Shown in pieces: positions 1-64,000 of a stretch of DNA of 64,000 nt. Where the stretch lies: the NCBI GenBank assembly GCA_977017645.1, contig OZ360242.1, forward strand, positions 28,644,001-28,708,000, in the 5' to 3' direction. This DNA comes from Torpedo marmorata. Its lineage: Eukaryota. Every line of letters starts with the position of its first letter. The stretch's first letter is position 1. Under the pieces are notes generated by a model that saw only the letters and a list, made by a program, of their open reading frames with translations, searched no databases and was not told the origin of the DNA. A program made the position numbers and the translations under genes.

Positions 1-231
1 CCTGATGCAGAGACTCATCCTGAAATATCAGTGATTTCTTTACCCCACAGATGCTGAGAACCCCCAGCAATTTTTTGCTTCACATTCCAACATGTGCAGC
101 CTTACATCTTGACTCATTTCTTTGAATAATCTGTGTAAAATGTATTTATTACAACTGTTAAAATGACATCATAATACAGAAATGCCTAAACTTACGGTTT
201 TGTGTGAAAGACTGACTGATGAGAAGCTTAC

Positions 232-313
232 CTCAGCACATGCATAGTCAGTAACGTTGAAGTTGCAGAGCTGACTCACATTAATATTGAGCAGGAAAGT
301 CTTCAAAGCTGAA
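232..313 (-). CDS. Unit exon 1 of the next unit ([28 protein letters not shown])
   Basis: tag|TTCAGC...GAG|gtaagc; phase 2 to 0; 82 nt; twin at 48333-48414. Confidence 0.75.
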
Positions 314-3300
314 CTACAGGGAGAAAAGGTGATCTATTCTTAGGAAAGATGTTACTGTGAGTAACAAATAGTCAAACAGATTCTTTCCGACCATTTATAT
401 CTCACAATTTGAGGTTAATAATATGTGATTTAAGTATTCAATATTACTAAGTAATACACAACAAAATATTTTGAATATCTGCCATGTCAGGAGATATCAT
501 TCACTGACGCATTGACAGAATCTGTGAAACTGCACAGAAAAGATGTATTGAATTCTTACCTGTCTATTGCTCTACACAATGTAGTTTCTGTATGAGGAAT
601 TAAAAAGAAATAATTTTATTACATTGGAATTAAAATACTAGAACTAGTCAAGTTATAAAATAATGTAGAAAATACACTTACCATTAACTGTGGTATTACC
701 AGGCTAAGGAATAGAAATAATAAGAACTTTAATGCCGAATCATCTTAAATTAACACACAATGGTGGTAACATTCAAATATTGTTGGAAGTATTGAGTAAT
801 TATTTAATCAATTACTTTTCCTTAATCTACAACATTTAAAAAATATCGGCTATATAGATAAGAATTATAAAAATTAAACGCTGCAAAAACAAACAAGAAA
901 GTATACTGAAAATTGACATTCGGAAAATATAGTGTTGAGATTTTCTTACTTTGTTGTCAATTTCAGGTTCTGTAAAAAAAAAAAAGAAGCACAACAATGT
1001 CAGAAGATGCTCGAGCTGGCATGTTATTAAACTTAATCAAATCACATCATTGTAATAAATTACACTCACAATTATGACTTAAATCAATATTGGAATCAAC
1101 ATTTGTTTTGATAAGATCATCTTGTCCCACAGTACAATCTGTTCACAACTGAATTTTGACCTGTACTGTTCCCTACAACTGTGGAATTTAGCCTGTTAAA
1201 GCATCCATTACCACCCTGAGGATAAAGGCACCAATCTTTCATCTAACATCAAATTGTGCAATGCACACAAAGTAGCAGCAGAGCCAAAACTCCAGAACTA
1301 TGAGTTATCAGCTGGAGACTATATTGAAGGATTTGAAGACAAAATTTGACTGATATTGAACACTTTGGCAAGAAATTACCTGATGAATTATTTGGAATAC
1401 CTCCTGTCAGGCCAAGTTTGCTCACTTCAGACTCACTGTGTGAGGCCACCCAAACCCTGACTACAGTTTCATTCTCTCCACTTTGCAAAGCGCGAAGGTG
1501 ATATCCAAGCAAATTGATTAGAGTTTCAGCACTCAGTTTCTGAAAATAAATAAACATTTAATGAACGACAACCACAGCAAAATATTTTGTACTTTATCTT
1601 GACTTTCATTTCATCTGGATAAATGGATAGAGATTAAAAAAATGGGATGTTGGATTTGAATAAGCTTTCAGGATGCAATATTTTGAGTCGCTCAGCAAAA
1701 GGCTCACATCGGGCACCAGAAACGGGGAGAACATCCCCCGTTGAGAAGGAGAAGCATAGGAGATGACCCTACAGAAAGGTGACCATGGCAGCGGACCAGC
1801 GAGGGGCTCAGTGGCTGTAGGACCCACATAGGCTATGGGCCGCTGGAGACTTGCGGTCAAAGTATCCACACAGGCTGGGGGCTGCTGGTGACTTGCGTCG
1901 AAGGACCCACACAAGCTGGGGGCTGCTGGGGACTGGTTCCAAGGAACCAGGCATTAGAACCTGGATTCGGGAGGGTGCTGAAGCCAAGAAGAGCCCCCGA
2001 AGTGCCCCGGGTGCTGAAAGGTTCCTGATTTCTTTGTAGATTTGGATCTGAATTGCTTGAACAGAAGTCTGTGAGGTTGCAGAAGCACTGGAGGCGAATC
2101 CACTGACACTCAATGTCTCTGAAGGGAATCTCCTTTGCTTCTCTTTCTCCTATTGTTAGGGACGCAGGGCAATGGTCATGGCCACTCTTTTGTTTGCCTT
2201 ATAGCAGACAAAATCTGAAGTGCTGTATATCATGCATATTACATTTTTATGATTTTAACGTGACAATAAAAGGAACTTTGAACCTTAAGTTACAAAATAC
2301 AAAAGTACAAGACAAGTCGGCATAGGTTAAAGGAAATGACTAAGAGGTTTAGAAAGGATCCGAGGAAGATCTTTTTTTATATAAGGGGGTGCCTATTCTA
2401 AAAATACGAGAAGAATTTTTTTCACCTCAAGGGCGGTGAATATTTGGAATTTGCTGCCCTTGATGGTTATGCAGGAATCACCACTGAGCATATTTGAAGC
2501 AGAGATCAATAGGTTTTAAGAGAAACAAATGGATATAGAGTTTGCACAAGAAAGTAGCCAAAAGACAAGCCATGATCTAATTCAACAGCTCAATCAAGAA
2601 CATTATTTAAGATTCAGAGAGGGTATTTAATGAGCTGAGATTGAAACAAGAAGTTAAGAAATTGTAACCATGACAATGTTAATGAAATAAGGAAACATTT
2701 GGTCTCTATATACCTTTACTTCTTCAGGATCCAATCGTCTGAAGGTTGAAAAATCCATGTTGACGCTGTTGTTTGCAAGAAACTTCAGATCATCAGCTTG
2801 GGCACCACCTGAAGAAAAGAGAGATATTTTCTATCTTTATGTGGAGGGTTGAGTAAAGGCACAAAACCAAATGTTACTGCAGGTGAAGGAAGCAGACACA
2901 GGGACAAAAAAGGGGATGTATTTTTAGGGTACCCTGTTTACGACATGGAATAATTTTGAAAGGTGAAACATCTGTTGGTCCATTCCATATTCAAGATTAT
3001 CTGAGACCTGCCAAGAAATTTAAACTATGCCCCTCACCTCCTGTGCATGCTTGGGTTTTGCACTGGGATTCTTCGGGTTCCCTGTGATCGAAAAGGATCC
3101 GATCTCATTGATGCAAGAGTGCATCTATTTTATCCACTGAATTTGGAGTATTAGTCATACTGACGAATTATTGGGACAGGGACATTTGTGGTCACTTTAC
3201 AGACTTGGGTGCCCATCCAATTGTTGGACAATTGTTAAGACTTGAGCCTAATTCAGTTTCATGTTCACACATGAGTTCTGCTTCAATAGTGGTGGTCTGG

Positions 3301-6300
3301 ATTGAACAGAGTCAAACAGGATCAATATCTCTGAATGCTTCACAACTTGAAGGTTCTTAAGATTTCATCATCTTACAACTGAACCTTTGTAAGCTGATTG
3401 CATCTTAACACTGACAATTGACAAAATCCTGACTCGGCAGATTTCAAATCTGATTTTGGCAGTTTCTGCAGTTCAGTTCAAAAACCAATGCAAAAAGGAA
3501 GTTGTGATTAATTCAGACAATTGGCCAAATTAAAAAAAGAATTAACTTACCAACATATGACTTTATCAGCTGAAAATAGGGGATTGGGCTGTTTCGTTGA
3601 GAGCTGAGAGCAGTGACAGCCAAATCATAAAGCAAACGTTGCTTTCCCCGTGCACACGCAGAAAGATCCAGAGCTCCGGCATCCCTGAGGAAAGAAGCCA
3701 CAAATAAATCCTACCAAGTGTCTCTGCAATTACACCAGGTCAAGGGACCGGAATGTGTACCTTGCAGCTCAAGAAATATACCCAATCTGTTGACTGTATC
3801 TGGGAGAGTGATAGAAATTTCAAACTCAAAAACACAATTACCAGCATAATTCATACTATAGATAACACCAGATCAGAAACTGAAATAATATATAACTGCA
3901 GGCATTTTCACCTTGACAAGTCCGAATGGCTACAGCCATCAACTGAGTGAATGGCTGCACACTCAGCATCAAGGTTGACAAGAAGAACAGGTTCCTGGAA
4001 GAAGCTGTCCCAATACAAATACATTGAAGAAAAAACTCTCAATAATTAAGTTATCATTATGACTCCAGCTATAAGAGACTTTCCTCTACATATTGGAGAA
4101 AATTGGAATTACTTTAGACACACTGGAAAGTGCAGATGCTGGAATTTGAAGCTAAACACAATCTGCTGGAGCAACTCATCGGTGGAGCAGTGTCACCAAG
4201 AGAAAAGGTATGGTCAATGTTAAGCCAAAAAACTTCATCAAGACTGGAGGTGTGGAGAATTTAGTGTAAAGAGATCAAGGTGTGAAGGGTAGGACAGAGG
4301 CCCATGTGGGATTGGTGAAGTGAACCATGACAGACAGTAGCAGTAGGTTGGCAGAGGCCAGTAAAAGGGGAGGAAGAGGCAAGAAAACCAAAGGGGTCAG
4401 GTGGAGGAAAATGAGTCATACAGGGTGGAGAGGGTAATTAGGAGAGAAAGGCTGCCAGTTTTGTGATTTGATCAGAAGAGAAGGTGACAATGGTGGTTTA
4501 AAGAGAGACCAGGAAGAACCAAAGAGGATGGTGGGAAAAGAGTGGAAGAATCCACTCTTTTCCCACCAGACAGCAGACAGAATCAAAGAGGAAGGGGAAT
4601 GAGAATAGGTAGGAACCAGGTGAGGTTGAGTGGGAAACGTGACAAAAATAAGGATGGAAAGTGAAGGGGAGAGGGGGAAGAGCAGAAGTGGCACTGAAGA
4701 AGAAAGGGGACTGATTACCTGAAATTAGAAAATTCTGCGTTCATACATTTGGGCTGATGTTGGACTGCCCAGGCTGAATATCAAGTGTTGTTCCTCTAGT
4801 TTGCTTTGGGCCCCACACATATTAAATTAAAACACTGCCACAAAATGGCAAAGATCAATAAGATGGAGGTCATATTGATGCTGATAATCACCAAGCTGTC
4901 AGTTCATGTCTCAACCAAATTCCTTAGAGAAGGAATAACCTAACTGTGAGCTGTAAAGTTGGTTTACAAAATGGCTCATTGCTGCACAATTACTTGGACT
5001 GAGTGAGTTCAAAGACTGATACTTTGTTCCTCAGGAAATCAGATAATTTTACCAGAAAACTAGTAATTGAAAGATGTATACTTACGTCAATTTGGAAATT
5101 GTCTTCAGTTGTTCTTGATTCAAAGTGCACAAATTGGCTCCACCAATGCCTTTCAAAGAAACTGCATTGAGGTTACCGCCTGACTGCAGAAATTGTGTAA
5201 TAATGAAGGTCACCTGTTGAAAGATATTTGAAGAGCAGATGATTATTCATTGTCAAATGGTGATCTTTTATTCTTGTTTTCTTACATTTTTGAAATATTA
5301 TTTTTTTTTAGTATGGAATTCTTTTAAACTATACATCGTTAAATGGTTATCAATAACTCCCATCCATTGCACCCCATGTAGAATTTTCACTTTACCATTT
5401 TGGCCACTTCTTCTAATCACCAACTGTACCTCATCGTGCGAAGCTAATTACAAATCACTTCAAATAACAACGCCCCATGTATATCACGTTTTGCAAAGGA
5501 AATTCCAGATTACATCACCATATGCCTGCAGATAGCAAACTGTTTGCATTTATCTTTTCTTAGTGTCAGTACCGTTATGTTATCCAGCTGTTGCTTCATC
5601 AATGCAGAAAGTGTCTCAACCCGAGTGATATTCCAGCTGCTGACTTCTGTTGCATTAAATACAGTGGATATGTTGCCCAACAGTTGAATCTGGTTTTCTG
5701 GGAGCCCCTTGGGATAAATCTATTTCAGGAAATACAACATCATAAAACTCAGTCATTTTGTTAGAAGAGGTTTTCTCTATTCATGGTCTACCTGGCTCTT
5801 TAAACTTGTCTTGAATTCAACTGGATCAAGAATGATCTGATCAGTGGCTTCAACTGTCGGATTCCCGAATCATTGCTGACCCCATTATCCAAAATCTACC
5901 TGAACTTTGAATATACTGTACAAAATGTCACGGCAAGCACAGCACTCAAAGGTTTAAAGAGAATTAAGAAGGCACAACATCAAGCTTAAATGGGAAATCC
6001 TTTATCCTATGACTGGCCACAATTCGAGATTCCCTCCTGTATCCACCCTGTTAAGCCACCTCTGAATATTTTAGGTTTTTATTGCAAAAACTTTTATTCT
6101 TCTAACCTCCAGAGACCTTAGGCCCGTTTCACTCAACTTATCCTCACAACCCAACCCCTTCATTTGATGAATCACTTTAATGAAGTTCCCAACACTGCAA
6201 GAAAGCTAAATACACCTATCTATAAATGAAGAGATCAAAATTATACATACTGCTCTGCACATGGTTTCATCAAAGCACTGTACAGTTGAAGAAAGATTTC

Positions 6301-9300
6301 CCAACTTTTTTGCACCATGTCTTTTGTAATAAAAGCACGCTAAATGTACGGTTAGCGCAGCACTAATACAGTGCTGAAAGGAGTTTGTACGTTGTACCTG
6401 TCCCTGCGTGTGTTTCCTCTGGTGCCCCAGTTTCCTCCCACCATTCAAAATTGGACAGGGTTTGGAGGTTAATTGGTGTATTTGGGTGGCACGGTCTCTT
6501 GAGCCAGAAGGGCCAATTACTGTCCTGTTTATATTTAAAACATATATTCTATCTGATTTTTTTCTATTGTGAAGATTCACCACCCATTTCTGAACACCAG
6601 TCATTAGTTATGCACTATATAAATAATATTCTTTTTTACACTTGCTACCAACATAATTTATTATCCTCACCTTATCCTCTATCAGTGAGCTTTATATTCA
6701 CTTAACTGCTGTCCTCCTAATAACTTACTTCTGGCATACAATACATCCAGTCCTTCTTCAAAGTTATGAACACAAATTCTAAATAACTGGAGATTCCTTC
6801 AACACCTCCCCAGTTTGAATTTGACATTGACTTAGTAACCCCTTCTTTCTTACTGAGCAAGTTCTCTGTTATCAAAGGAGCTGACTTTGGGATTAGACAT
6901 TAAACAGAGACCTCAGCTGACATTTCAGGATTTGGTTAAAAATAATCATGACTCTATATGTAAAACAGGCACAGAGTTCCCTGTGCTCCTGCCCCAAGTG
7001 AATTCCTTCAGCAAGTGATGACATATTTTTTAATGTAATAATTACCATTTTCTGCATCATCTTGTCAACACAAGACATTTGCTGTGAACCAATGCAGGAG
7101 GTCACATGGAGGGAGGTGGGTACATGCAACAAACTGCTAAAGGAACTGGTAGAGGCAGGGATAATTGCAATACTTCAAAGACATTTGGACAGGAAATATT
7201 GAGAGGTATATGGGCTGAACAAAGGCAAATGGGACGACATTGGTCAGTATGGGCAAGTTGGTCAAAGGTCGTGTGCCCTTGCAGTAAAACTATGATTCCA
7301 TTTCCTGAGGCAACGAAAAGCAACACAACAATACTGCATTTGTATAAGGAAATAAATAAGAAGTTTGCAGATACTGGGGTCCAGTGCAGTACAAAAAAAG
7401 TGGTGGAGAAACTCAGCAGGTCACGCAGCATCCATTGTAAGGAAAAAGGCAATTGAGATTTTGACATCAGGAAGACTGGATGCAAATTGGGGGGGGGGTC
7501 GCTTCGTCAAGCCCCTTCACTCTGCCCGCTGCCACAGTGAGGATCTATCAGTGGCCAACCAACCACTTCAATTCCACACTCCATTGCCACACTGATCTAT
7601 CTGTCCATGGCCTCATGTACTGCCAGATTGAGGACACTTGTAAACCTCGTATTCAGTCTCAGCAGTCTCCAACCAGGTGGCATCAACATCGACTTCCCCA
7701 ATTTCTGTTCACCCCCTCCCAACATTCTCCTGATTTCCCTTCTCCTCTGTCTCCTTTCCTTCAGCTCGCCGGTCCCTTCCCTTCCTTCTCCGATCGGAGA
7801 ACTATCTTTCTCAGCCTCCCCTTACTACCCCTCAGCTCCTTTCTCTTTTTCACCCTCTAACCCGTGTCCATTATCACCTGCTCGGCTTCCTCCCCCCGCC
7901 CTCTTATTCGGACGTCTGCCTGATTTTCGACACACCTTGAGAAGGGCTCAGGCCTGAAACATCGACTGACTTTTGCTTTCCATGGATGCTGTATGGCCTG
8001 CTGAGTTTCTCCAGCACGGTTATGTACTATATTTTTACAAAGCTTACTTACACGCAGAAGTTTATTTTTCAGAACTTTCAGCTGAGTTGGATCAAAGGCT
8101 AGTGATCCCAGCTGGAGAACACCATCTTTCAGCACAGCATCACTCAAACAAAGGTCCAACTGGGTCGCATCATACTTTGCAGGAGTCAGGTCATTGATGT
8201 CTTCCGGTGCTATTTCTCCCTCTGTACAGGCTGGCAATACAAAATTCCATTGGGTGAAAGAGAGACAGGAGTGGCAGGTTAATACTGATGGCGGCTGGGT
8301 TTTTAGATTGGCTGAAGGGAGTCAAAAAGGAGAGTGGTATGACAGGCAATAGAAAAGTTGATGTGTTGGAAAGACCAAATCAAAATATAGGAGAATGGAA
8401 ATGGGTCAGTCACACTTCTGGGAATGCAATACAGAACTGCAGCCTCAGAGTGAGGTTGAAGAGAAAATCCGAAAGGAAATTTCCGTCATGTACGCAGACA
8501 ACTGGGCATTAAGAGTGGAAGATTTCAATTTCCCTAATTGGGATACAATCAGAATAACACCCCCCCCTCCCCCCCCCCCCACCGAAACCTAACCCAAGAG
8601 AGATTCCAGGTGGAAAGTGGGTGGCATCAGGAAGAGGTCGCAAGCGTGGGAGACTTCAGGATGAGAGCTCCTCTCAAACAGGGATCCACAATTGGAGATT
8701 GCTGCAAGTGATGACGCCTGAAGTGATACGTATCACTTCCAGGTGTCATCATCTTGGCGTCGATGAGTGTACCGCAGCACAGAGGCCAATAATAACGAAT
8801 ATTTATGCCGATGATATGGGAGTTAGTCAAGAAGTAGAAAGTGATTTCAGGAATATTCCCAGTACCATGTGCAAGTGAGAACAGAAATGAATGGAAGTGA
8901 ACATTTTAAATAGGGAGGAACTTGAGGAAAGGTGCATGAAGAGAACACGGTGATCTTTGGGGCATTGGAATTGGTTCTGGGTCATGAGACAACTTTTCAA
9001 CAGGACAGGATGGTCTTCAACAGGACTGTCGCCGGTGCTCTCTCAGAGAAGTACACAGGTGCAGGGAGGAAAAAAATAAATTCTTCCAATTATAATTCAA
9101 AATGTTGTGACGGATCCTGTAGGGAGATATGTAATGATACATTGCCAGATATATTCAGAATTTTTGACTTTATTGAATATATATGCTCCCAATATGGATG
9201 ATGATAAGTTCATTCAAGAGACTTTTCTTAATAGAGCGGAAGCACATGAGAATATTATAATAGGAGGAGACTTCAACTTTTGTTTAGATCCGGTCTTTGA

Positions 9301-12300
9301 TAAGTCTACAAGAGGAGTGAAGAGAACTAAGGCAGCGAAAGCTACGCTGGTATTAATGAAAGACTTAAATTTAATAGACGCCTGGAGAAGAATTCATCCT
9401 TGGGATGAAGATTTTTTATTTTATTCCAGTAGGCATGATTCCTATTCCAGAATTGATTTATTTTTAGTTTCAGCTCAACTGCAAGACAGAATTCTAGAAG
9501 TAGAATATAAAGCAAGGATTTTGTCTGACCATTCACCTTTATTGATGACAATTGTCGTACCTGATAAAGAAAAATCAATATACAGATGGAGATTGAATCC
9601 TTTGTTATTAAAAAGAACAGATTTTTGTGATTTTATAAGGAGGCAAATTCAGATATTTTGTGAAACAAATGTAAACTCCGTGCCTGATAAATTTGTAATA
9701 TGGGAAAGTTTGAAAGTATATTTAAGAGGTCAAATTATGTTATTCTTCAAAAATTAAAAAGGAATATATGAGAGAAATAGACCAATTAGAAAAAGAAATA
9801 ACAATTTTAGATAAAGATTTACAAAAGAGGAGCTCTGTCGATAAATGCAGACAACTAATAAATAAAAAACTTCAATATAACGTATTACAGACTAATAGAA
9901 CGGAGAAGACTATTATAAGAAACAAGCAAAGATATTATGAGCTAGGTGAACATTCACATAAAGTACTTGCAAGGCAATTGAAAACAGAACAGGCATCAAG
10001 AACAATTAATGCAGTTAAAAGCGAGGCTGATGTTATTAGCTATAAACCCCAAATAATAAATGATTCTTTTGAAAAATTTTATTCTGATTTATATAAATCA
10101 GAGTCTTTGCAAGATGACAGTAAAATTGATGGATATTTATCACAGATAAATTTACCAAGATTAAATATGCAAGAGCAATTAGAATTGAGTACCCTGTTTA
10201 CGCAGAAAGAAGTGAAAGATGCAATGAGTTCATTACAAAGTAATAAAGTACCGGAGAGGATGGTTTTCCGCCAGAGTTTTATAAAGAGTTTAAGGAATTA
10301 TTAATTCCTGTCTTTATGGATTTGTTACAGCAGGCGTCTGTGACTCATACACTTCCAGAATCTTTTTCTACAGCAATAATTACAGTAATACTAAAAAAAG
10401 ATAGAGACCCATTGAAACCTTCATCATATTGACCAATTTCATTACTGAATGCAGACCATAAAATTGTAGCGAAAATCTTGGCCAATAGGATAACAAAACT
10501 TTTGCCAAAATTAGTAAATATGGATCAAACAGGCTTTATAAAAAAAAGACAAGCAGCTGACAATGTAGCAAGGTTACTTAGTATTGTTCATTTAGCTCAA
10601 AAAAGAAAAGTATTAAGTGTCGCGGTGGCACTAGATGCAGAAAAAGCTTTTGAGAGATTGGAGTGGGACTTTTTGTTTAAAGTATTGGAGAAATTTGGAT
10701 TTGGACAGACTTATATAGATTGGATTAAAGCATTATATAACGCTCCAAAAGCTAAAGTAGTGACTAATGGACAAATATCAACTTCGTTTTGCTTGACAAG
10801 ATCTAGTCGACAAGGGTGCCCATTGTCACCAGCTTTATTTATATTAGCTATAGAACCACTTGCAGAGGCAATTAGAAGTGACTCGGCAATTAAGGCAGTT
10901 AGTCAAGAGCAACATAAAATCATCTTATTTGCAGATGATGTTTTAATATATTTGAAAGAGCCTGAGACTCTCTGCAAAGATTGTATTTTAAATTGGAAGA
11001 ATATGGGAAAGTTTCAGGTTTTTAGATAAACTGGGATAAAAGTGAAATTATGCCTCTTACAGAGGGAAATTATACTATATGTAAAAGAAGTACTCAGTTT
11101 AAATGGCCACATAATGGGATAAAATATCTAGGGATTCGAACAGACAATAATTTTAAAAATCGATATAAACGGAATTATCTACCATTACTTAAAAAGATTA
11201 AAGAAGATTTGGAAAAATGGATTAATTTACCTATTACACTGATAGGAAGAGTTGATAGTATTAAAATGAATATATTTCCAAGGATACAATATTTGTATCA
11301 AACTATACCTATTTTACTACCACAGGTTTTTTCCCAGGATTTAAATAAACAAGTGCGAAAATTTCTTTGGAAAGGTAAAATGTCAAGAGTTTCTATGGAA
11401 CGTTTAACATGGAAATATGAATTGGGAGGTTTACAACTCCCTAATTTTAAAAATTATTATCGATGGGCACAAATGAGATTTGTTACTTCTTTTTTTGAAA
11501 GTGAAGGAAGACCTGCATGGGTTGGAATAGAGCTAGGAGAAATAGGAGAGAAAGTACCAGAAGAATTTATATATAAATGGAACTCAAAATTATTGATAGG
11601 AGTTAAAGAAACATCATTACTAAAACATTTGATTATTGCATGGAACAAGATTAATGATGAGATAGGGATGAAAGGAACTATATCACCTAAAATGTCATTG
11701 ATACAGAATAATCTTATACCGTTTACAAAAGATAATCAATTTTTAAATATATGGTCACAGAAAGGAATAAAGAAGATAGAAGATTGTTATGAAGGGAATC
11801 AATTGATGTCGTTTGTACAGCTAAAAAACAAATATGGAATACCGAATAACACTCTTTTTTGTTATTTTCAATTAAGAGGTTATTTAAGGGAAAAATTTGG
11901 TCCGGATATGTTGTTACAAAATTGTAGTGAGGTAGAAACCCTTATTAGGAAAGGAAATATTAAAAAATTTACTTCTATAATATATTCCTTGTTACAAAGG
12001 GGAGCCTTAAAACAAGGACTTTATAAATCTAGACAGAGATGGGAACAAGATCTTAATGTTATAATTGATGAAAAAATATGGTCGGATTTATGTCAAGATA
12101 GTATCACCAACACTATTAATGTAAGATATAGATTAGTACAGTATAATTTTTTACATCAATTATATCTTACACCACAAAAATTGAATAAGATAAAATCTAC
12201 ATTATCAAATAAGTGTTTTAGATGTGGTGAAGAGGAGGGAACTTTTTTACATTCAACATGGTTATGCTCTTAGGTAAAAAAAAGTTTGGATGGAGTTAGG

Positions 12301-15300
12301 GAATCTGTTAAAACAAATTACAGGTGTCACATTTCCACAGAATCCTGATTTATTTTTATTAGGGAATGTGGAAGGAACTAGAACAAAGTTGAAGTTATCA
12401 ACATATCAACTGAAATTTGTAAAAAATTGCTTTAGCAGTAGCAAGGAAGTGTATAGCAGTAACTTGGAAATCAGATACAAATTTAGGCATGGATAGATGG
12501 AATATAGAGATGCGGAGTTGTATTCCATTGGAAAAAATAACATATGAGAAATAAATATGGGGTCTTCTTGCAAATTTGGCGTCCATATATCCAATCATTA
12601 GGTATGAATATTTAAATGTGTTGTTCTACATCCTAGACCCTGCTGACTCTCTCAAATTTAAATAATGAAAAAACTGTTGAATACCATGCTGTGGACCCAG
12701 CAGCGATCCGTACAGATGTTTTAATAAGTAATACTATAATGCCTTCTTTTCTGTTTTCTTTTTAGTTTTTAGTAAGGGGAAGGAATTAAAGGGAGGGGAA
12801 GGGTGGAGGGTGGGGTAGAAACATTTAATACTTAATACTAAGTAATAATTTTAATTGAAATGTTTGGAAGATATAAGGGGTTGGGGGAGTTAAGGTAGGG
12901 TTAGATACACTATGTAATACAAATTATGGTTTTTTTATTTACTGGAATTAATAATGTATATTATATACGTTGTATTACTGTGTGAAAAATAAAAAAGATT
13001 AAAATAAAATATTCAAAAAAACAAAATAAAAGTAGAAAATGATTTCAGGAATATTCCCAGTACTAACCATGTGCAAGTGAGAACAGAAATGAATGGACGT
13101 GAACAGTTTAAATAGGGAGGAACTTGAGGAAAGGTGCATGAAGAGAACACGGAGATCTTTGGGGCATTGGAATTGGTTCTGGGTCATGAGACAACTTTTC
13201 AACAGGACAGGATGGTCTTCAACAGGACTGTCACCGGTGCTCTCTCAGAGAAGTACACAGGCACAGGGATGAAAAAAATAAATTCAACTGAAGGGGGATG
13301 AACATCAGCAAATAGAAGTAGAAAAGAGGTACACAGTGCACAAAGATGTGAGATTGTTAGATAATATTAGGGAATGAATGAACACTATTATATATTAGTA
13401 GTTCTGGAAGGAATACAGAGGCAAGTTTCGAGTACATGTACATAAGATTTGTGAACTGTCCACATGTGAACTGCAAAGGCATTTCAGAGAGCAGCTGACA
13501 GTCAACCACATCCATGGTTCTGGAGTCAAATGAAGGCCTGGTTGGCAAGTGCAGAAAATTTTCTTCCCCAAAAGTCATTCGCGGACTAAATGAGTGTTTA
13601 TGGCAAGCAGCCAATTCATGGTCACCATTACAACCGATTGCATGTTTATATTTCTCATTTATTTAATCAAATGAATTATCAAAGCATCTGAATTTACATT
13701 TCAGGATTATTAATTCTTATCAAACCAGCAATACATCATTACCCAAGTCTAACCCATAACGTTGATTATTTAGCACAGAATGAAATTAATTTCATACTTG
13801 CGGTATTGTTGGATATTCCTCGTAATTGGAGCTGACTAATAAATATCAAGACTTCCCCAGGAGGTCTCAATCTTTTGATTTTCTTGATAAATCTTGGCAG
13901 AGCTTCATAAAGGGTAGGCTGTATGGGGTAAATTGGAAAAGGTAGAGATTGCCATCAAATTTCTAACTGAACATATATCCTGAAATGCCAGGAAGAGGAT
14001 CATAAAACATTTATTCATTAATGAAAACACTTAGCACGTCATTAGCAATTCCTCCCATCAAAAATCCAAAACCAATGTCATCTGCAAGTGACAAACATGT
14101 TGGAACAAAAGGAATACAATGACTGGTAAAAGTAATGCAGCATTTCTCCATCCCAACTTGGGAATGTATCAATTTGGGTTTCACCAAATCATACTGACAC
14201 AGAACATAGAACACAGAAACAGGCTACAGCCAGTAGAGTGGGAGTGTGCAGCCTCAGTCAGAGGCTGAGCAGGGTGCTGGGACCAGACCAAAGTTGTGGA
14301 ACCAGGGGTGGAGTGAAGAATGAGATGGTTGGGAAACGGGGTGCTCATATTGTGGTAACAGAGGAGAAGGAGCAGAGGTGGCAGTCGAACCAGGGAAATA
14401 ACAACGATTACAATGTCTCAAATTCAGCTACTTCAATCAACTTCCATTCTAGTAAACTATACCTTGTTTATTTGATTCCATGTGTGAGTCAACGCCAAAG
14501 GAAGATTTCCAAGGGTTTGTATTGTAGATGATGACCACGATGAAGGAAAACTACAGACAGAGAAGAATGTCTCTGAGTTAGTAATGCACTGCAATAAACT
14601 GTATCAATTTTATTCAAGGTTTTTCATACCTGAGGTTCAATCAGAACAGTGAAAATTAAACTGTAAGATTTAACTTCCAAAGTCAAAAACACAAAAGATA
14701 GGTCGCTGTCAAAATGATTCCCAATTGGACTTTTGAAGGAAGATAGCAAAATGAAGAAAAGCCCTCTTCACTTTTAGTGTAAGTCCACCATTTCAGAATA
14801 TGTACCATTGGAACAAACAATAGAATGCCAAGGAATATTCGATACTGAGAAAGAAAATAACCAAGGGAAGACGAGAACCGCAGATCCAGTAATCCTGATC
14901 AAAATAACCTCTATCATTTCATCTCCAATACACAAGGAAGGGATGTTCCATGCACAAGAATGGCTTGGGCTAACATACATTGATCCCAGACCTTCGTTAA
15001 AAGGTGCCATGTTTCAGGAATAAGAGTGCTGTTGTTTAAAGGCACCTGCTTCCGTGGCAGTTAAATAGTTTGTTGTGCAGACAAAGTGCACATTCTCCAA
15101 AGATAGTGCCCAGCAATACAAGTTGTCATGAGATATGAAATTCAGACATTCTGGTGTGATCTGTTTTGTAATTTGTGAACATTTCACACTCACCCATATT
15201 TGCTGGCTCCACTTTGAAGGCGATATTCAATTGCACGTTTCTGATCATCTCGATACGTGACACATTTCTTTAATTCATCCAGAACAGATATATCAGATCC

Positions 15301-18300
15301 CATTATTGTGGATGCATCAAGGTCACAGACCAATCCACCTAGTACTGTCAAGCTCTCCTTTGTCAGGTTCTTGTTGTTGGTAACTCCCTGAATTGTTATG
15401 AAAAGAGCAACATTAATTCTGCAGTACGTATATCATCATGCACAAATTAAACTCTGTTCATCATTCCTACTTTAAGACCACCCTCATTGTGTGGATGAAC
15501 ATTGCTACAATTTATCGGCACATCGAGAACATGGAAGAATATCAGCTGGTTTTGAATTCCACCTCCAATTCCCAACGCAGCTTCAGCTCAGCGGGTCTCC
15601 AACATTTATCACACTGATTAACAACGTTTAAAACTTCTCCTGACTTTAGGTGTCATAGTTACATATTCGTTAGAAATTTAAATTGTGTGATCAGCTGTAT
15701 GAACTCAGGTTTTTCACTCTATTCAGTGTGTCCAAGATATCAGTTTAATCAACCCCGAGTTTACTCTTAATACTTACCAAACACGTTTTGGCATCTTTAA
15801 GAATATTTTGTTCTCTTGCTGAGACTTTTCTTAAAATATTTATATTTGATTTCCCGACTAATTTGAAGAATTCCCGACAGTTGGATAAAGTCCTGAAGTA
15901 TTGATAACTATAAAGTGAAACAGAAAATACACACAGGTTATATTGACGATATGAAGTTATTTGTACTTTTCCCAACCCTAATTAATATGCTTTAATCTCC
16001 ACTCCACTCTGTCCCTCTCAAAAGACTCCCTTGCTATTCTCAATTTATTGCCACATGAAAGAAAATGTACAGTAAAACCCCTGGTATCTGGCACCTATGG
16101 GGACTGGTAGATGCCAGATAAGTGAATTTTCTGGTTGCTTGAGGTTGCGTGTTGCATCATGAGCGAACTAACCACTAGGGGCGCCAATTTTAAACTTCCA
16201 TATTTTTTACCTATTTATTTTCCGTGATTGTTTTGCCAGTTGCTTGAGGATGCCGGTTGATTGAATTCCTGATAACTTGGGTTTTAATGTACATATTCCT
16301 GAAGTGACTCGGAGGAAATTGAACTAGCATTTCTTGGCACGAGGTATAATTTTTGTGTGTCGGATGCACAGGAAGTGACATTATTCCCTGACTGGACCAA
16401 TGCCCTGGGCATTGATTCAGTCTTGTTGGCACGGCAGACCTATGATCATGCAGCACATCTAACGTGGTGCACGACAATTTCTGTGTCCTACTTCCCAGAT
16501 GAAATGTAGTGTGGGATCCCTGAGTTTGCCATTCCCTGCTCCCCCATTGCCCTTGGGCACTGTGGAAAACTGCCACATTCAGGAGTAAGCAAAATGCTTT
16601 TGGTCAACATGCTCAGGTTATATCCCTATGGAAGTTACTACTTCAAGTACTTTAGGTTACTGCAGATTTGGAAAACGTATCAATGGTCTATTCAACAAAA
16701 TAAATGGAAAATTCCAAAGAAAATGTAACATACTTGAATAGCAGAACATCCCTGGGTAAGACGTCCAAGTTGATTTCAGTTCTATTAGAAGAGAGTCTAC
16801 CAGACAGACACTCAAGCTAAAAATAAAACAGGACATAATGTCACATTGGGAACAGAAGCAGAGACAAATTGATCTCCCAGTTATTTCCTCACAATGTCCA
16901 GCTATTTTTTGATGCAGGAGAAGGTTAACTGTGGAGCTTCTTCAAGACTCTGAGCACCAGGACAGGGACAATTTGTCCAACTTAAAAAATGCAACATTTA
17001 GCATGAATCAACTTCATTAAGAATACATATTATTCACATTTCGGTTGTTGGGAAATGAGTATGTCTCCGTGAAAGCCTTTGGTGCTCACAGCTCAGCTCA
17101 ATTCTTAGGTCACACATGATTGTCCTTTCATTGGAATTTATTGACAAAGTAAACAGCTTTGAATTTGTATTCAAACCAGTCCATCAATGACACTGAATGG
17201 CTACGATTTCAAACTTTCATTTCTGTGGATGTTCTCACCTGACTTTCATCCAGTGCAACCTCTTTAACCTTCAATGCTTGAACAAGCTTCAGAAATGTCG
17301 GGAAACTTAGGGTTTTCGTTGCACCACAAGTAAAGCCTTGCAGGACAGAGGGTGAAAATCTGGAACAAGTCATGGCATTATTAATTTCTAAACCGCACAG
17401 TATTTCCAGAACTTTTAAACCTATCATCGCAAACTCCATCCACATCACTGCATCTCTAGCACACATCTAATGATTGTCTGAATTGCGCCATGATTATTTT
17501 ATTTCTATGAACGAGCAACAATCATGAGGGACTAAACTGTTGAATAAGCCCTACCCGTGATGTTTCTTTTATTGCAATAAAGAAACTTGGGTTCTTTTAA
17601 AACTATACTTTATTAGCTATAGAACATGACCATGTGGAGGCATCCATCTTGAATCCAACCCAAGCTGCAAACAAATTAGTCTCCGACTCCCTCTTGTGGT
17701 CAGGAGTCTCACTAACACTCTATCACAACATCCCCTATCCTTGAGATGTTTAATCTAACAACATGACACACTAATACAGTATTCATTTCAATTTACAGTT
17801 CAACACAAACATAAACATCAGCAGCACAAACTTAAACATCAGCAGCACAAACTTTTTAAGTGTGCAGTTCTTTTTCTTTTAGAGATTCAGTCTGTCAGGT
17901 GCTTTGATAACACATGTGGATCTTCTTAACACAGGTGCTTGTGACGGCTCTGCTGGTCCACTACCGTTTCCTCTGTTGCTGTGCAGGCTGGATCTTCTGC
18001 ATTTGTCTGTTCCTGCAGTGTCTCTTGCGTTTTCAGACGCTTTTGTTTACGTTTGATATCATCGATATCTCTGTTCTTGTTTGGGTCTGTAGAGTAGGCA
18101 AGTGTGGTGTGTAGTCTACGTCCCATCAGAAGCTCAGCGGGTTACATGCCATGTTCAAGTGGCGAAGGTCTGTTACTCAATAGAGCTAGATACGGATCTG
18201 AGCCACTGTCTTGTGCTTTCTAGAGCAACTGTTTAACTATGTGAACTCCTTTCTCTGCTTTACCGTTTGACTGTGGATGCAGAGGACTTGACGTTACATG

Positions 18301-21300
18301 TCAAAAATCATACTCTTCTGCAAAGTTCTGGAATTCTCTACAGCTGTAGCATGGTCCATTGTCACTGTAGACAATTTGAGGAATTCCATATCTTGCAAAG
18401 ATCGATTTCATATATTTGATCACACAAGCAGCAGACATATTAGGAAGCAGCACAATCTTTGGATAGTTCGATAGATAATCAATAACCAGCAAGTAATTAT
18501 TTCCATCCATGTGGAACAGATCAGTCCCAACTTTCTGCCACGGTTCTGCTGGTAAGTCAGTTATGATCATGGGTTCCTTTGTCTGCTTTGCGTGATGTTT
18601 CAAACCGGTCTCACAGCTTGAAACCATCCTGTCAATGTCAGCATTTATCCCTGGCCAATAAACAGCAGTTTTGGCCCTCCTTTTGCATTTTTCCATTCCA
18701 AGGTGCCCCTCATGCACCCTTTTCAGCATCTCTTGTCACAGTGATTGAGGAATGATAATTCTGCTCTGTCTGAGTAGAAGCCCATTGACAACACTCAGCT
18801 CAGCTCTGATATTGTAGTATGGCTGACATTCACCTCTCGACCATCCTTCATTCAGATTCTTGATGACCTTCTGTAGAACTGTGTCCTTTTCTGTTTCAGC
18901 TGCAATCTGCTTGGATTTCATGTCAGATACGGGAAGAGATTCAGTGATCAGATTTACGTGGAGATTCATATCTGTCTCTGTGGAACTCTTATTGTGTGCT
19001 TCATTCTGCGTCGTTGCCCTGGATAACGCATCAGCTAACACAATAGTTTTCCCTGCTGTGTACACCCTCTTGACTAGGCTAAAGTTTTCACATGCTTTGT
19101 CACCCAGCAGTGATTCAAGTCTATCTAGGACTACTGTGAACCTGAGGTGGTGCTCTTTATCTTTAACTTTCACTTTGAATTTACATGTACCTTTCGTGTC
19201 GATGCTCTGTCCATTGTAGGCTTTGAGCTGTACAGGATTTGCGTGGATGTATGGCTTTATCTTCATTGCCCTGATGTCGTGCTCACAGATCAAATTGACC
19301 TTTGCCCCTGTGTCCAGCTTGAAAGAAATATTTGTTCCATTTGTATGTAATGACACAGTCCACTTGTCCTGCTCGACTCTGTTTATGCTTGGCTGTTCAG
19401 TGTCTGTTTGGTTTATAATCTTCCTGCACTACCATGCCAATGAAAAGTGTATCACTGAGGGCAGTTTCTTCTATTGTGTGTACAGTGTGCACGCTTTCAC
19501 TTCTGTGTTATTTCCCTTTGGAAAAACATTGCTTTGCATAATGATTCTGCCCTTTGCACTTATTACAGACTTTTCCATAGGCTGAGCATGGTTTTGGTGC
19601 ATGTTGAGTGCCACATCGTTTACAATTGAATGTCTCTCCACCTTTTGGTTGTTTCCTATATTTCATTTTTTTGCTTGTGTGTGTGAACACACACTGTGGC
19701 TACGGCTCTGCCTTCGTTTTCACTGGCTTTTGCACTCTCACCGAACTTTTTCGCGTGCTGCAGAGCTTATTCACTGGCATGGCATATCTTCACAGCTCCA
19801 GCTAAGGTAAGCTCTGTCTCTCGCAGCAACCTCACTCTCACTTTCTTATCAATAATCCCGAACACAATTTGACCACGGATCATTGAATCTTGCAGCGATC
19901 CAAAATTGCACGTTCTTGCTTTTAATTTCAAGTTCGTTAAAAAAGTATCAAAGCTCTCTCCCTGCAACTGCGTGCACGAGCGAAACACGTACCCCTCGAA
20001 CGTTTCAATTTTCTTTGGTGAACAGTGTTCATCAAACATCTCGATAACCTTGTCGAACTTGCCCTGGTCTTCTGCCTCGGCAAAAACAAATGTATTGAAA
20101 ACTTCTAGTGCTTGAGGTCCCGCCACGGTAAGTAGTAGTGCAATCTTCCGTGCATCAGGTTTGCTATCGAGTCCAATGGCTTGCAGGTACAGCATGAATC
20201 TTTGTTTGAACAGCCTCCACTCGTGGTTGACATTTCCAGTTCAATTTTCAACATCAGGAGCCTTCACACTTTCCCTTTCTGCTGATATCGACTGATCCTC
20301 ATTCTGCACACTCCTGGTGTTTCTTCCACTCCTGGTACCATGTGATGTTTCTTTTATTGTAATAAAGAAACTTGGGTTCTTTTAAAATAACTATACTTTA
20401 TTAGCTAAAGAACATGATCGTGTGGAGGCATCCATCTTGAATCCAACCCAAGCTGCAAACAAACTAGTCTCCGACACCCTCTTGTGGTCAGGAGTATCAC
20501 TAGCACTCTATCATGACACGACTGCTCAACTTGACATGAATGGTCTCTTGGTCCAATCCGTTCAATAATTTAATTATTTCAGTTAATGCTGCATTCTGAT
20601 GCAGCTTACTCTCACTTAAATCTCGTTCATTTGTATGGTTTAAAGATTGATTTTTCAGCATGCAACAGGAAAGAACAGGAAGGTTAGGATTTTATGTGTT
20701 GCAGGAGAGAAGCTGATAAACTGGAAAATCGACATTCAGAGAAAATTAGAGAATAAAAATAAAAAACAAAAATCTGGCAATACTCAGCAGGCCATGCAAC
20801 ATCAGTGGTGAGAGAAAGAGAGTTCAGATTTTAGGTCGACATCTTTAATTATGCTCTGGACTAAATATTCAGTTTGGGGGCAAACATGAAATTCTGCAGA
20901 CACTGTTTCTTGAAAAGAGTTCAGGCCCGAAATGTCAGTGATATATCTTTACCTCCTGTGGATGCTGCGAGACCTCCAGAATTTCTGTGCTTTTAAACAT
21001 TGGTAACTCAATAAAAGTCAACAAGAGCCCTCCTTCACAGCCGATTAAATAATAATGTAAACTGACCACTATAAAAAATCACTGAAATAAATGTGCCCGC
21101 TTTAGAAACTATGCATGAAAGCTCAAGCTAAAGTGGATGTCACGAACCATGACATCAACAGAGAGTCAAAAGATAACAAACGAAAAAAAGGCAGAAATTA
21201 AAAGAGCATTGCTCACGTCTCAAAATTGGTGCTTCTGATCACATTTGGAAAGAACACGGCAGACTGTGGAACAAAACCAATAACATTGTTAACTGATGCA

Positions 21301-24300
21301 ACAGGGTTATAAAAAATTTATACACAAATAACACACAAATGGGATGACATTCCTGACATCACTAAAATAATAAGCAAAAAATAGTTGGAGGAAATCAGCA
21401 GGTCAGACAGCATCCTCGAGTAGCTATAGTCAGTCAAAGTTTCGAGTGGAAACCCTTTATCAAGATTTTATAAAGGGTTTCAAATCGATGGACCATTTCA
21501 GCTCGTGGACGCTGTCTGACCTGCTGAGTGCCTCCAGCACTTCTTTGTGCAAGATTCCAGCACCTACAGCTTTGGTGTTTCTCTACTGCTAAATTAATGC
21601 ACATTTGCCAACAACATGGGGTAGGGTGGGTTTAATACTTTTTTTTATGAAGTAATATGGGTCGGCACAACATCGAGGGACGAAGGGCCTGCACTGTGCT
21701 GTACTATTCTATGTTCCAACAGCTGATTTTCTTTACAGACATGGTCAGTGCTTGTAAACAACAGGGTAATTTACCTGACTAGGCGTCCACTCTTTATTGT
21801 TTACATCATTGAGGCTCAGGTTGGAATTTAACAGCACAGGTGGAACCTCCGAGGCAAGAACAGATGGAATGTTCTTTACTGTTGCCACTGGGTTGTTAAC
21901 ATTCCTCAACACCTGATTTACAATGAAACAGAACATGATTTAATGGAAGATGAAAATAAGAATATGATAGCATTAACTTTGAAAATATAAATAGAGAGCA
22001 GGAAACCACTGACATATTACAACACTCACCTGAAGAACACAGATCGCTCGTATAGATCGTGGTGCTTGTCCAATGTTCTGAACAAATCTTACATTTGAGA
22101 TTACATTAATGAATATCTCAGGATTAATACTTCGGAACACGTCACTGGGAATACCGGACACCAGGGTTCCCACACCCAACAAACCATTTGTGTTATTCAC
22201 CTTGTTGTGAAGGGAAAGACAAATGAAGAGTTAATTTGCAAGCGGTGTTGTATAACAATATGATTTCCTCCTCATTTCACATGGCAGAGAATTGTTAGTG
22301 AGACAAAAGTGAAAATATTTCTTGTTACTCCAGTTGGTTTCACCTTTCTACATTTGGCTTCAAGATCAATTATACTGCATAAAAAAACAGTTTCACAAGG
22401 ACCATTTCACAGTGGGGAGGTTAATTGGAATTTGTGAATTAGGAAAATGATAGAAATGGTAGAAGAAATATCCTGAAACACTCAAAAGATCTTCAATTGA
22501 CAAAATTCAGCAGATTAAGCAGTTTTGTGGGGGCAAAAGAATGGTTGTCCATCAGAAGTGAGACTGGAGAGAGAGGACAACCAGAATAAAGTAATGTAGG
22601 AGGTAGGCTGGTAGCTGATAGGTGGAACCAGGTGAGAGGGGGATGAGGAGCAGTCAAACCAGATGACCCCATTGGTATGTGGGTTGATGGGCAGATGGAA
22701 CCAGATGAGAGACCCAGGGAGCAACACCGGTCCCGAACGCTGGCGCTGTAACAGAGTTGCGCTAACCACTACGCAAACCGTGCTGCCCAGTTCCAGAGAC
22801 GCTAGAGATAATACTATCACTAACTTTATTCACCCGTTGATAATTTTTTTATTACTGATTGGTTCATTGCTTACCTGGTAACCGCTTCTCAGTAACTTGT
22901 CTACTATGGAATTAGCCTGACCAACATTCCAGCCTTCGACGTTGCCCAGGCTTGGCAGGGCTTGCTCCAGAGTGTTCCCATCAATATTGTCAACCTGTGA
23001 CGATGATAGTCCGACGGCAGTTTGGCCCAAACTATTCAAAGTGCTGACTGAAAAGTTGTCGATTTTGCCCACTAAAACTATCGCCAGCTGAAAGAACCAC
23101 AAAGGTACATTATGACTTCTATCTTTTCAGGAGAACAGCTATCTTTCCAAGAGAAGACTTCACATGAACTCAACATGAATATATTTTACCTTGAGTTGTT
23201 CATCTGTTGGCTGCTCGGGAGGTAATGCACCATCAGTAGATGTGTTGGTTGTCACATTAAGCCCACATACATTATTTATCCTTCCAATTAAAGCCAACGT
23301 TTGCTGTGCAGTCAAGTTCTGAAGTAGATTAGTATTGGCAATGAAGCACAGCAGAGAGTTTGGCACACTGTAAAAGAATGCCAGTCAGGGTTAGCATCAG
23401 CATATCTTCCACTACTCCAGCCCTCCACACCCTACAGCTCTCGGAAGGATTGTTACCAATATCGCCAATAAAGATTTTCTTCAAAGATCGGCAAATTAAA
23501 TATTTATGAGGAACATATGTGGTGGCACAGACCCAAATATCATTGGATTAAATGGTATCAGTTGACGTACAATTTGATGCACAATTTCCCCCACAATATT
23601 AAATTCTTCAATTCTGAGAATATTTTCTTTTTTTTCAAAATCCATAAAGATGGGGCGGCACGGTTAGCGTAGTGATTAGCGCAACTCTGTTACAGCGCCA
23701 GCGATCGGGACCGGTATTCGAATCCCGCGCTGTCTCTGAGGAGTTTGTACGTTCTCCACGTGTCTGCGTGGGTTTCCTCTGGGGGCTCCAGTTTCCTCCC
23801 ACCGTTGCAAAAGTACCCGGGCTTGTAGGTTAATTGTGTGTAATTGGACACCACGGGCCCGTGGGCCGAAATGGCCTAATACCATGCTGTATGTCTAAAA
23901 AAAATAAAACTTAGGAAGTTGTGTCAGTAGAGGATCTACACTTCTGAATATCTAGTCTGTCATCCAAGACATTATTCATTGTATTCATGGATTTTCAAAT
24001 CTTTGTTGGTTTATTGTTACAGTCTCCGCATCTTGGTCATCTTTTATTCATTGCCACCAATCAAATTAAGCAAAAACTTCACTAAATTGATTTATTTTTA
24101 CTTATTATCATTATCAGAATTTATTGTTATGAACAAGTCATGAAATTCGGTGTTTTGCGGCAGCATCATAGTGCAAACATTCATATTACAACCATCTTAC
24201 GACATTACTATAAAAAAAGTATAAATAATAGTGCAGGAAAAGTAAGGCAGTGTCTTTGGTTCATTGATTATTCAGGAATCTGATGGCAGCGGGGAAGAAG

Positions 24301-63976: not shown

Positions 63977-64000
63977 CTATAAAGTGAAACAGAAAATACA

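What the first reader, a model, noticed from the sequence alone, without database searches (positions are those of the whole stretch)
560..969. Three consecutive micro-exons (20, 22, 28 nt) form the in-frame linker between units
Each micro-exon has a pyrimidine-rich AG acceptor and a GTAAG donor. None is a multiple of 3, yet their phases chain exactly (1>0>1>2) from exon 31 to exon 1 and encode [23 protein letters not shown]. They appear identical in both copies (48661-49068), while nearby intron sequence has indels (around 1040-1075 versus 49139-49150). Inference: this is the junction that fused the ancestral C-terminus to an N-terminal portion. Skipping any single micro-exon would shift the frame, though skipping 32 and 33 together (42 nt) would not. 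Automated annotation would probably miss them and split the gene.
Basis: partly seen in the sequence, partly recalled or inferred. Interest (0 to 1): 0.72.

Follow-up and report, generated by a model that had tools for sequence, protein, structure and literature searches.

The report
Micro-exon joints of giant mesothelin gene
Three tiny segments (20, 22 and 28 bases) in a shark- or ray-type genome are very likely real exons that join repeated modules of one giant mesothelin-family gene (predicted at about 11,300 amino acids); they match the small exons at the start of the same gene, which were likely reused each time the gene was fused head-to-tail with a copy of itself.

Summary
Observation confirmed on the minus strand: exons 969-950, 703-682 and 587-560 chain phases 1>0>1>2 inside an intact 34-exon, 1,447-aa unit. 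They belong to a cartilaginous-fish mesothelin-family gene (mslna orthologue) of about 469 kb, modelled as one frame of about 258 exons and 11,300-11,400 aa with seven mesothelin modules. The same micro-exon set recurs at an old paralogous junction (20/22/28), as the 28-nt exon alone at another, and right after the gene's predicted signal-peptide exon (23/22/28). So the triplet is the ancestral N-terminal exon set, spliced in where the GPI-signal exon would be. It is not the breakpoint of the recent 48-kb repeat, which falls between exons 8 and 9. Of 25 internal junctions in 15 database proteins of sharks, rays and a chimaera, 17 carry the triplet-type peptide and 8 the third exon only, so annotation often finds them. 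The 28-nt exon supplies an invariant cysteine of a folded domain; the first two form a dispensable 42-nt spacer. No RNA from this species was available.

The parts
950..969 (-). micro-exon m1 (exon 32), 20 nt, phase 1>0
   Evidence: same size and phase at old junction J6
682..703 (-). micro-exon m2 (exon 33), 22 nt, phase 0>1; carries N-glycosylation sequons; Cys in the ancestral type, Pro here
560..587 (-). micro-exon m3 (exon 34), 28 nt, phase 1>2; codes the invariant first Cys of the next module's N-terminal domain
1380..1539 (-). exon 31, 160 nt, end of a mesothelin-like module (GGIP motif = end of the folded part of human mesothelin)
232..313 (-). exon 1 of the next module, 82 nt, phase 2>0
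1249..1380 (-). in-frame read-through of the exon-31 donor: 43 aa ending in an uncharged hydrophobic run and a stop (possible alternative GPI tail; unproven)
48661..49068 (-). second copy of the triplet (49068-49049, 48802-48781, 48688-48661)
49453..49612 (-). exon 31 of the preceding module
560..48414 (-). one complete 34-exon module, 4,341 nt = 1,447 aa, no stop, all AG/GT sites
38088..39043 (-). intron between exons 8 and 9 (phase 1): register boundary of the recent 48-kb duplication
   Evidence: (copy lists change register here)
48415..64000 (-). exons 22-34 of the preceding near-identical module (98.75% to 1-15931)

Best explanation
The three segments are very likely coding exons of one giant mesothelin-family gene (mslna orthologue) of a cartilaginous fish, and they are copies of the small exons found at the gene's 5' end, likely recruited when whole gene copies fused head-to-tail. 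Mechanism: the ancestral gene ran signal-peptide exon (ends phase 1) - three micro-exons - cysteine-capped helical domain - helical repeats - mesothelin module - last exon with GPI signal (entered in phase 1). Because both ends are phase 1 (shown), the last mesothelin exon of an upstream copy can splice straight to the first micro-exon of the downstream copy, dropping GPI signal and signal peptide and keeping the frame (inferred). m3 is obligatory: it fixes the phase (1>2) and codes an invariant Cys at the start of the next folded domain; m1+m2 (42 nt) add an optional, likely flexible and glycosylated 14-residue spacer. Later unequal crossing-over between exons 8 and 9 (inferred) made four near-identical 48-kb copies that carry the old junction along. 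The predicted product is a secreted, GPI-anchored, heavily N-glycosylated helical-solenoid chain of about 11,300 aa with seven mesothelin modules, likely acting as a very long surface tether for mucin-type glycoproteins, as mesothelin does for MUC16 (inferred by analogy, about 0.5).
For: Intact 34-exon unit, 4,341 nt, 0 stops; three complete copies all open, one with an in-frame 3-nt deletion; 19 synonymous vs 16 non-synonymous variable codons among them, omega about 0.25, binomial P 6e-5. Same 20/22/28 set with the same phases at J6 (window coordinates -107674, -109553, -109658), where the introns do not align (one 38-nt hit on m2 only); 28-nt exon alone at J1 (167273-167246); 23/22/28 set at 276322-275873 after a hydrophobic ATG exon 277976-277913. 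Single-module relatives in caecilian, toad, ostrich, paddlefish and axolotl begin with signal peptide + the same Cys pattern. 25 internal junctions in 15 chondrichthyan database proteins all contain the m3 peptide, 17 also m1+m2. Two Logan contigs (1,111 nt and 10,469 nt, the latter holding a 3,067-aa frame, so likely spliced RNA) read through a junction via m3, and the long one also matches the 5' micro-exons. Model of P0003: pLDDT about 90 from m3 onward, under 50 just before it. Seven copies of exon 31 in the genome, all in this array. The catshark orthologue scyTo_0003439 (P0009) is listed in a catshark semen proteome table (PMC11083954).
Against: No RNA from this species was laid on the locus. 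Both transcript-like contigs show internal junctions without m1+m2, so internal use of m1+m2 rests on splice signals, conservation and database models whose RNA support I did not see. The longest database model is 7,628 aa; no single sequence covers all seven modules. The whole-gene model is a home-made dynamic-programming chain with the 19 micro-exons forced in and some wrong boundaries; only the window module was curated by hand. The signal peptide and GPI signal rest on hydropathy, not on a dedicated predictor. The low pLDDT before m3 may reflect thin alignment depth there. Ligand and tissue are untested.
Confidence: 0.85

Rival explanations
1. Only m3 is used in mRNA at these junctions; m1 and m2 are skipped most of the time (alternative 42-nt cassette or relic).
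For: Logan contig P0003 and the Leucoraja model P0157 lack m1+m2 at the orthologous junction while the Amblyraja model P0161 has them; skipping keeps the frame; my unforced exon chain dropped them at 2 junctions shown.
Against: Strong splice sites (acceptor+donor scores 14.5 and 8.8); sizes and phases kept at J6 and in chimaera-to-ray proteins; the m2 Cys co-occurs with a partner Cys about 155 residues downstream in 9 of 9 internal junctions that have it (these are one clade, not independent).
Confidence: 0.15
2. Each 48-kb unit is a separate gene; the micro-exons are the start of a downstream gene rather than a linker.
For: They are N-terminal exons by origin; annotation splits the locus into several LOC genes in skates; read-through of exon 31 gives a hydrophobic tail and stop at four junctions.
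Against: Only 287-1,338 nt separate exon 31 from the first micro-exon; no signal-peptide-like ATG exon in 5 of 6 of these introns, and 1 candidate at J1 that is 17 aa and overlaps the m3 polypyrimidine region upstream; transcript-like contigs and 25 protein junctions read through.
Confidence: 0.05
3. One reading: a linker created at the breakpoint of the 48-kb duplication.
For: The triplet separates the two visible copies in the window.
Against: Copy register changes between exons 8 and 9, not at the triplet; the triplet also exists at the 5' end, at J6 and in Callorhinchus.
Confidence: 0.03
4. The near-identical 48-kb copies are partly an assembly artefact (haplotypes placed in tandem), so the real gene has fewer modules; the micro-exons are still real.
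For: Copies differ by only 0.85-1.2% of aligned bases; other species' models show at most five modules.
Against: Three complete copies all differ from each other, with 47-74 gap openings per pair and private insertions of about 1.4 and 2.5 kb; two haplotypes cannot give three versions; no N gap within the gene span.
Confidence: 0.08

Closest known systems
Fish mslna / 'mesothelin-like' uncharacterised proteins (Leucoraja mslna XP_055507061, Amblyraja XP_032896963 7,628 aa, Rhincodon LOC109913006 4,700 aa, Scyliorhinus scyTo_0003439)
   Same: Orthologous; same N-terminus, junction peptides and hydrophobic C-terminus; 53-72% identity over long stretches.
   Different: Seven modules here, four of them recent near-identical copies; database models are partial or split and carry no description of the junction's origin.
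Human mesothelin precursor (MSLN; Pfam PF06060; PDB 7UED)
   Same: Each module ends in a mesothelin-like region with both disulfide pairs and the GGIP end of the folded part.
   Different: 622 aa, one module, furin-cleaved and GPI-anchored; here about 800 extra N-terminal residues per module, seven modules, and furin-type motifs only in the last two.
Otoancorin and stereocilin
   Same: Long GPI-anchored members of the same superfamily, predicted superhelical tethers to glycoprotein matrix (PMC2628672).
   Different: Single mesothelin-like region; only a weak Stereocilin hit on one exon (E 0.24).
Head-to-tail multi-module mesothelin proteins in axolotl (XP_069503376, 6,351 aa) and catfish (XP_060716102)
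   Same: C-terminal module joined directly to an N-terminal Cys domain.
   Different: Different junction peptides, likely independent fusions (not tested on a tree); exon structure not seen.
Neural SRRM4-regulated microexons (recalled, no call)
   Same: Size range for m1 and m2.
   Different: Those are mostly single, frame-preserving and alternatively spliced; these are three in a row, none a multiple of 3, in a secreted protein.

Membership tests
Mesothelin family (PF06060) | Pfam Mesothelin match above the curated cut-off | tested here: met
   5 of 6 homologues scanned pass (39.6-443.8 bits vs 25.8). Single window exons: 2 of 8 hit at E 9e-5 and 2e-4, below cut-off. The spliced window protein itself was not scanned.
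Mesothelin family (PF06060) | Two disulfide pairs C302/C326 and C442/C468 | tested here: met
   Aligned Cys in P0005 vs 7UED (pairs from PMC10035497); the same four Cys are in window exons 26, 28, 29.
Mesothelin family (PF06060) | N-terminal signal peptide and C-terminal GPI signal | tested here: inconclusive
   Hydrophobic ATG exon matching P0010/P0156, and a hydrophobic terminal exon matching other species; hydropathy only, no dedicated predictor.
Mesothelin family (PF06060) | Furin site before the mature domain | tested here: not met
   Absent in the window module; basic motifs only in modules 6 and 7 of the model. So the window module is mesothelin-like but likely not processed like human MSLN.
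Mesothelin family (PF06060) | ARM/HEAT-like solenoid fold | tested here: inconclusive
   Sequence match of P0005 to solved mesothelin, E 1.4e-31; the junction model is all-helical but had no PDB match at E<=0.001.
Mesothelin family (PF06060) | Binding to MUC16/CA-125 | not testable with these tools
   Known for human MSLN only (PMC2628672, PMC10035497).
Constitutive coding micro-exons | Canonical AG/GT sites, open phase chain, conservation of size and phase | tested here: met
Constitutive coding micro-exons | Inclusion in transcripts of this species | not testable with these tools
   No run was listed, so no reads could be laid.
Neural SRRM4-type microexons (definition recalled) | Length a multiple of 3, individually skippable | tested here: not met
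   20, 22, 28 nt; any single skip closes the frame.

The most novel reading that the evidence does not exclude
Cartilaginous fishes make a megadalton GPI-anchored mesothelin polymer of variable module number, and this species can also set its length by RNA processing: at the four recent junctions, not using the exon-31 donor yields a 43-aa GPI-like tail and stop, so one gene would give a ladder of anchored tethers of two to seven modules, with the micro-exon triplet as the switch for 'continue'.
Probability: 0.12. Interest if true: 0.7.

Novelty: new variant of a known kind. Interest (0 to 1): 0.42.

Why it matters
Mesothelin's normal function is unclear and it is studied almost only as a small mammalian tumour antigen. 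This locus shows the family in cartilaginous fishes as a very long multi-module chain and gives a clean, datable example of how whole-gene head-to-tail fusion works at exon level: matching phase-1 ends let N-terminal micro-exons replace the GPI exon, the cysteine-bearing one is always kept and the spacer pair comes and goes. It also explains why the locus is split into several anonymous LOC genes. The micro-exons themselves are ordinary constitutive exons already present in many database models, which limits surprise.

Tried and rejected
The look-up of sequencing runs on window 200-3800: no RNA holder listed. Single-sequence fold of P0003 was poor (pLDDT 59.5); the alignment-based model gave no PDB fold match at E<=0.001. 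Identity between the recent copies as proof of exon status: rejected, micro-exons vary at the intron rate. First dN/dS run was distorted by a 3-nt deletion in exon 28 of one copy; exon 28 was dropped and the count redone. Homology of the read-through tail to the true terminal tail: not significant against 7 tails (633-1,678 of 2,000 shuffles scored as high); the tail is absent at J1 and J6 and one copy has Leu>Arg in it, although only 15 of 9,000 random read-throughs give such a tail. The first protein search was limited to 2,000 aa; the second to 3,480-5,000 aa. Eight paper searches gave no paper on fish or shark multi-module mesothelin; subscription papers and supplements were not seen. Three look-ups in earlier scan notes gave nothing relevant.

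Full report
Observation. The three segments lie on the minus strand at 969-950, 703-682 and 587-560, each with a pyrimidine-rich AG acceptor and a GTAAG donor. They chain in phase 1>0>1>2 from exon 1539-1380 to exon 313-232. The window holds a direct repeat of 1-15931 at 48104-64000 with 98.75% identity, with the same triplet at 49068-48661. Of the 8 ways to keep or drop the three exons, only all three or m3 alone leave the frame open. A scan of 664 kb for 10-40 nt exon candidates at least as strong as the weakest of the three found no triplet on the control strand; on the gene strand the open, independent triplets were the four recent junction copies and one at the gene's 5' end (thresholds were set after seeing the exons). 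The sequence identity of the copies is not itself evidence: 2 of 70 micro-exon columns and 30 of 968 intron columns vary among four copies.

The gene. Single exons hit Pfam Mesothelin weakly (2 of 8), and protein searches returned only cartilaginous-fish proteins at the top, with 53-72% identity to my model, highest for skate and ray proteins. A hand-curated module in the window has 34 exons, 4,341 nt, 1,447 aa, no stop, 40 N-glycosylation sequons. I fetched 600 kb of flanking DNA. A homology-guided exon chain with the 19 micro-exons forced in runs from an ATG at window coordinate 277,976 to a stop near -191,290 in one frame of 258 exons and 11,436 aa; it has a few wrong boundaries, so I give 11,300-11,400 aa. 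It has seven mesothelin-type ends, and a genome search finds exactly seven copies of exon 31, all here. The cluster of the closest full N-terminus includes Leucoraja 'mslna' and a 7,628-aa Amblyraja model. Three complete recent copies are all open, one with an in-frame 3-nt deletion, and differ at 19 synonymous and 16 non-synonymous codons with exon 28 left out (omega about 0.25).

What the micro-exons are. At the old junction J6 the exons are again 20, 22 and 28 nt with the same phases but only 9/20, 15/22 and 17/28 identical bases and unalignable introns. At J1 only a 28-nt exon is present. At the 5' end, a hydrophobic ATG exon ending in phase 1 is followed by 23-, 22- and 28-nt exons and then the homologue of exon 1; the skate contig protein P0010 has the matching N-terminus. 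A profile-free search with the junction protein P0003 found 182 relatives at E<=0.001, 150 listed; in many, the part after the junction begins 17-70 residues from a hydrophobic N-terminus, including caecilian and ostrich proteins named mesothelin. The terminal module uses a 187-nt form of exon 31 ending in phase 1 and then a short hydrophobic last exon. So the junction is the last mesothelin exon spliced to the first exons after the signal peptide. That the fusion happened this way is inference; the matching phases and homologies are shown.

Age and relation to the 48-kb repeat. Both junction types occur in the chimaera Callorhinchus (P0168/P0169 triplet, P0014 m3 only), so they predate the split of chimaeras from sharks and rays (about 400 million years, recalled). 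Copy lists show exons 1-8 and exons 9-34 in different registers, four copies each, so the recent repeat unit starts at exon 9 and ends at exon 8; the outer copies are more diverged (89-93%), as expected from unequal crossing-over (inferred). The triplet is a passenger in the middle of that unit.

Role of each exon. In 25 internal junctions counted by eye in 15 chondrichthyan database proteins (P0168 and P0169 are the same locus, the duplicate P0164 was left out) the m3 peptide with its Cys is always present; 17 have m1+m2 peptides and 8 do not. In an AlphaFold model of P0003 with a 26-sequence alignment, confidence rises from under 50 to about 90 at the first m3 residue, placing m3 in the next folded domain; the low values before it may partly reflect thin alignment. 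Human mesothelin is ordered only up to the Gly of the same GGIP motif region (G585; PMC10035497 passages; alignment). Where m2 has Cys, a further Cys about 155 residues downstream is present in 9 of 9 internal junctions and absent in all listed ones without it; these 9 are one clade, and the shark N-terminus has another partner candidate, so the disulfide is a prediction. In the window copy m2 has Pro and the partner is absent, which leaves m1+m2 as a glycosylated spacer.

Annotation.

Function. By family, the product would be a GPI-anchored helical solenoid binding glycoproteins (PMC2628672, first of five parts of the text read; PMC10035497 passages). The catshark orthologue is listed in a semen proteome table (PMC11083954, one table passage), and salmon mslna among skin genes changed by sea lice (PMC12339338, one passage). 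Furin-type motifs occur only in the last two modules, so most of the chain is likely not cut up. A long mucosal or mesothelial tether is my best guess; it is untested.

A side lead. Reading through the exon-31 donor gives 43 residues ending in an uncharged hydrophobic run and a stop at the four recent junctions. Only 15 of 9,000 random read-throughs do so, but the four copies are one event, the tail is missing at J1 and J6, one copy has a charged substitution and it is not significantly similar to true tails. I rate it a 0.12 lead.

Literature and verdict. Eight searches (listings and abstract starts only, apart from the four papers named) found no description of multi-module mesothelin in fishes or of this junction; supplements were not read. 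Earlier scan notes held nothing on it. Verdict: real exons, reader partly right, a new variant of a known family; interest 0.42. No RNA evidence from this species was obtained.

Noticed in passing
window 1380-1249 (-), and 49453-49322: Read-through of the exon-31 donor gives a 43-aa GPI-signal-like tail and stop at the four recent junctions only.
   Followed up: partly
window coordinates about 262,000-231,500 (G000:C56, upstream of the window): The first module holds about six tandem four-exon repeats (209/104/119-128/168 nt) of a helical unit, a second level of internal duplication; teleost relatives have up to 11 copies of the N-terminal domain.
   Followed up: partly
window 53283-53159 (-): Exon 28 of one copy is 125 nt, a 3-nt in-frame deletion relative to the other copies.
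   Followed up: yes
window 17557-20518 and 34109-36816: Inverted pair of related intronic elements with LTR-retrotransposon-like open pieces, 84-94% alike.
   Followed up: no
window 24300-26800: Intronic pieces resembling LINE reverse transcriptase (label recalled, no family scan).
   Followed up: no
window 41066-42453: About 1.4-kb insertion present in two of the recent copies and absent from the third; another copy has a private 2.5-kb insertion.
   Followed up: partly
model modules 6 and 7 (window coordinates about -100,000 and -164,200): Basic furin-type motifs are kept only in the last two modules, as in most other species' models, suggesting a very large shed N-terminal piece.
   Followed up: partly
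P0012 (axolotl), P0015/P0040 (catfish), P0037 (moray): Head-to-tail mesothelin fusions with different junction peptides, likely independent origins.
   Followed up: no
window coordinates 138,111-139,471: Intronic minisatellite of about 40-nt period in the second module.
   Followed up: no
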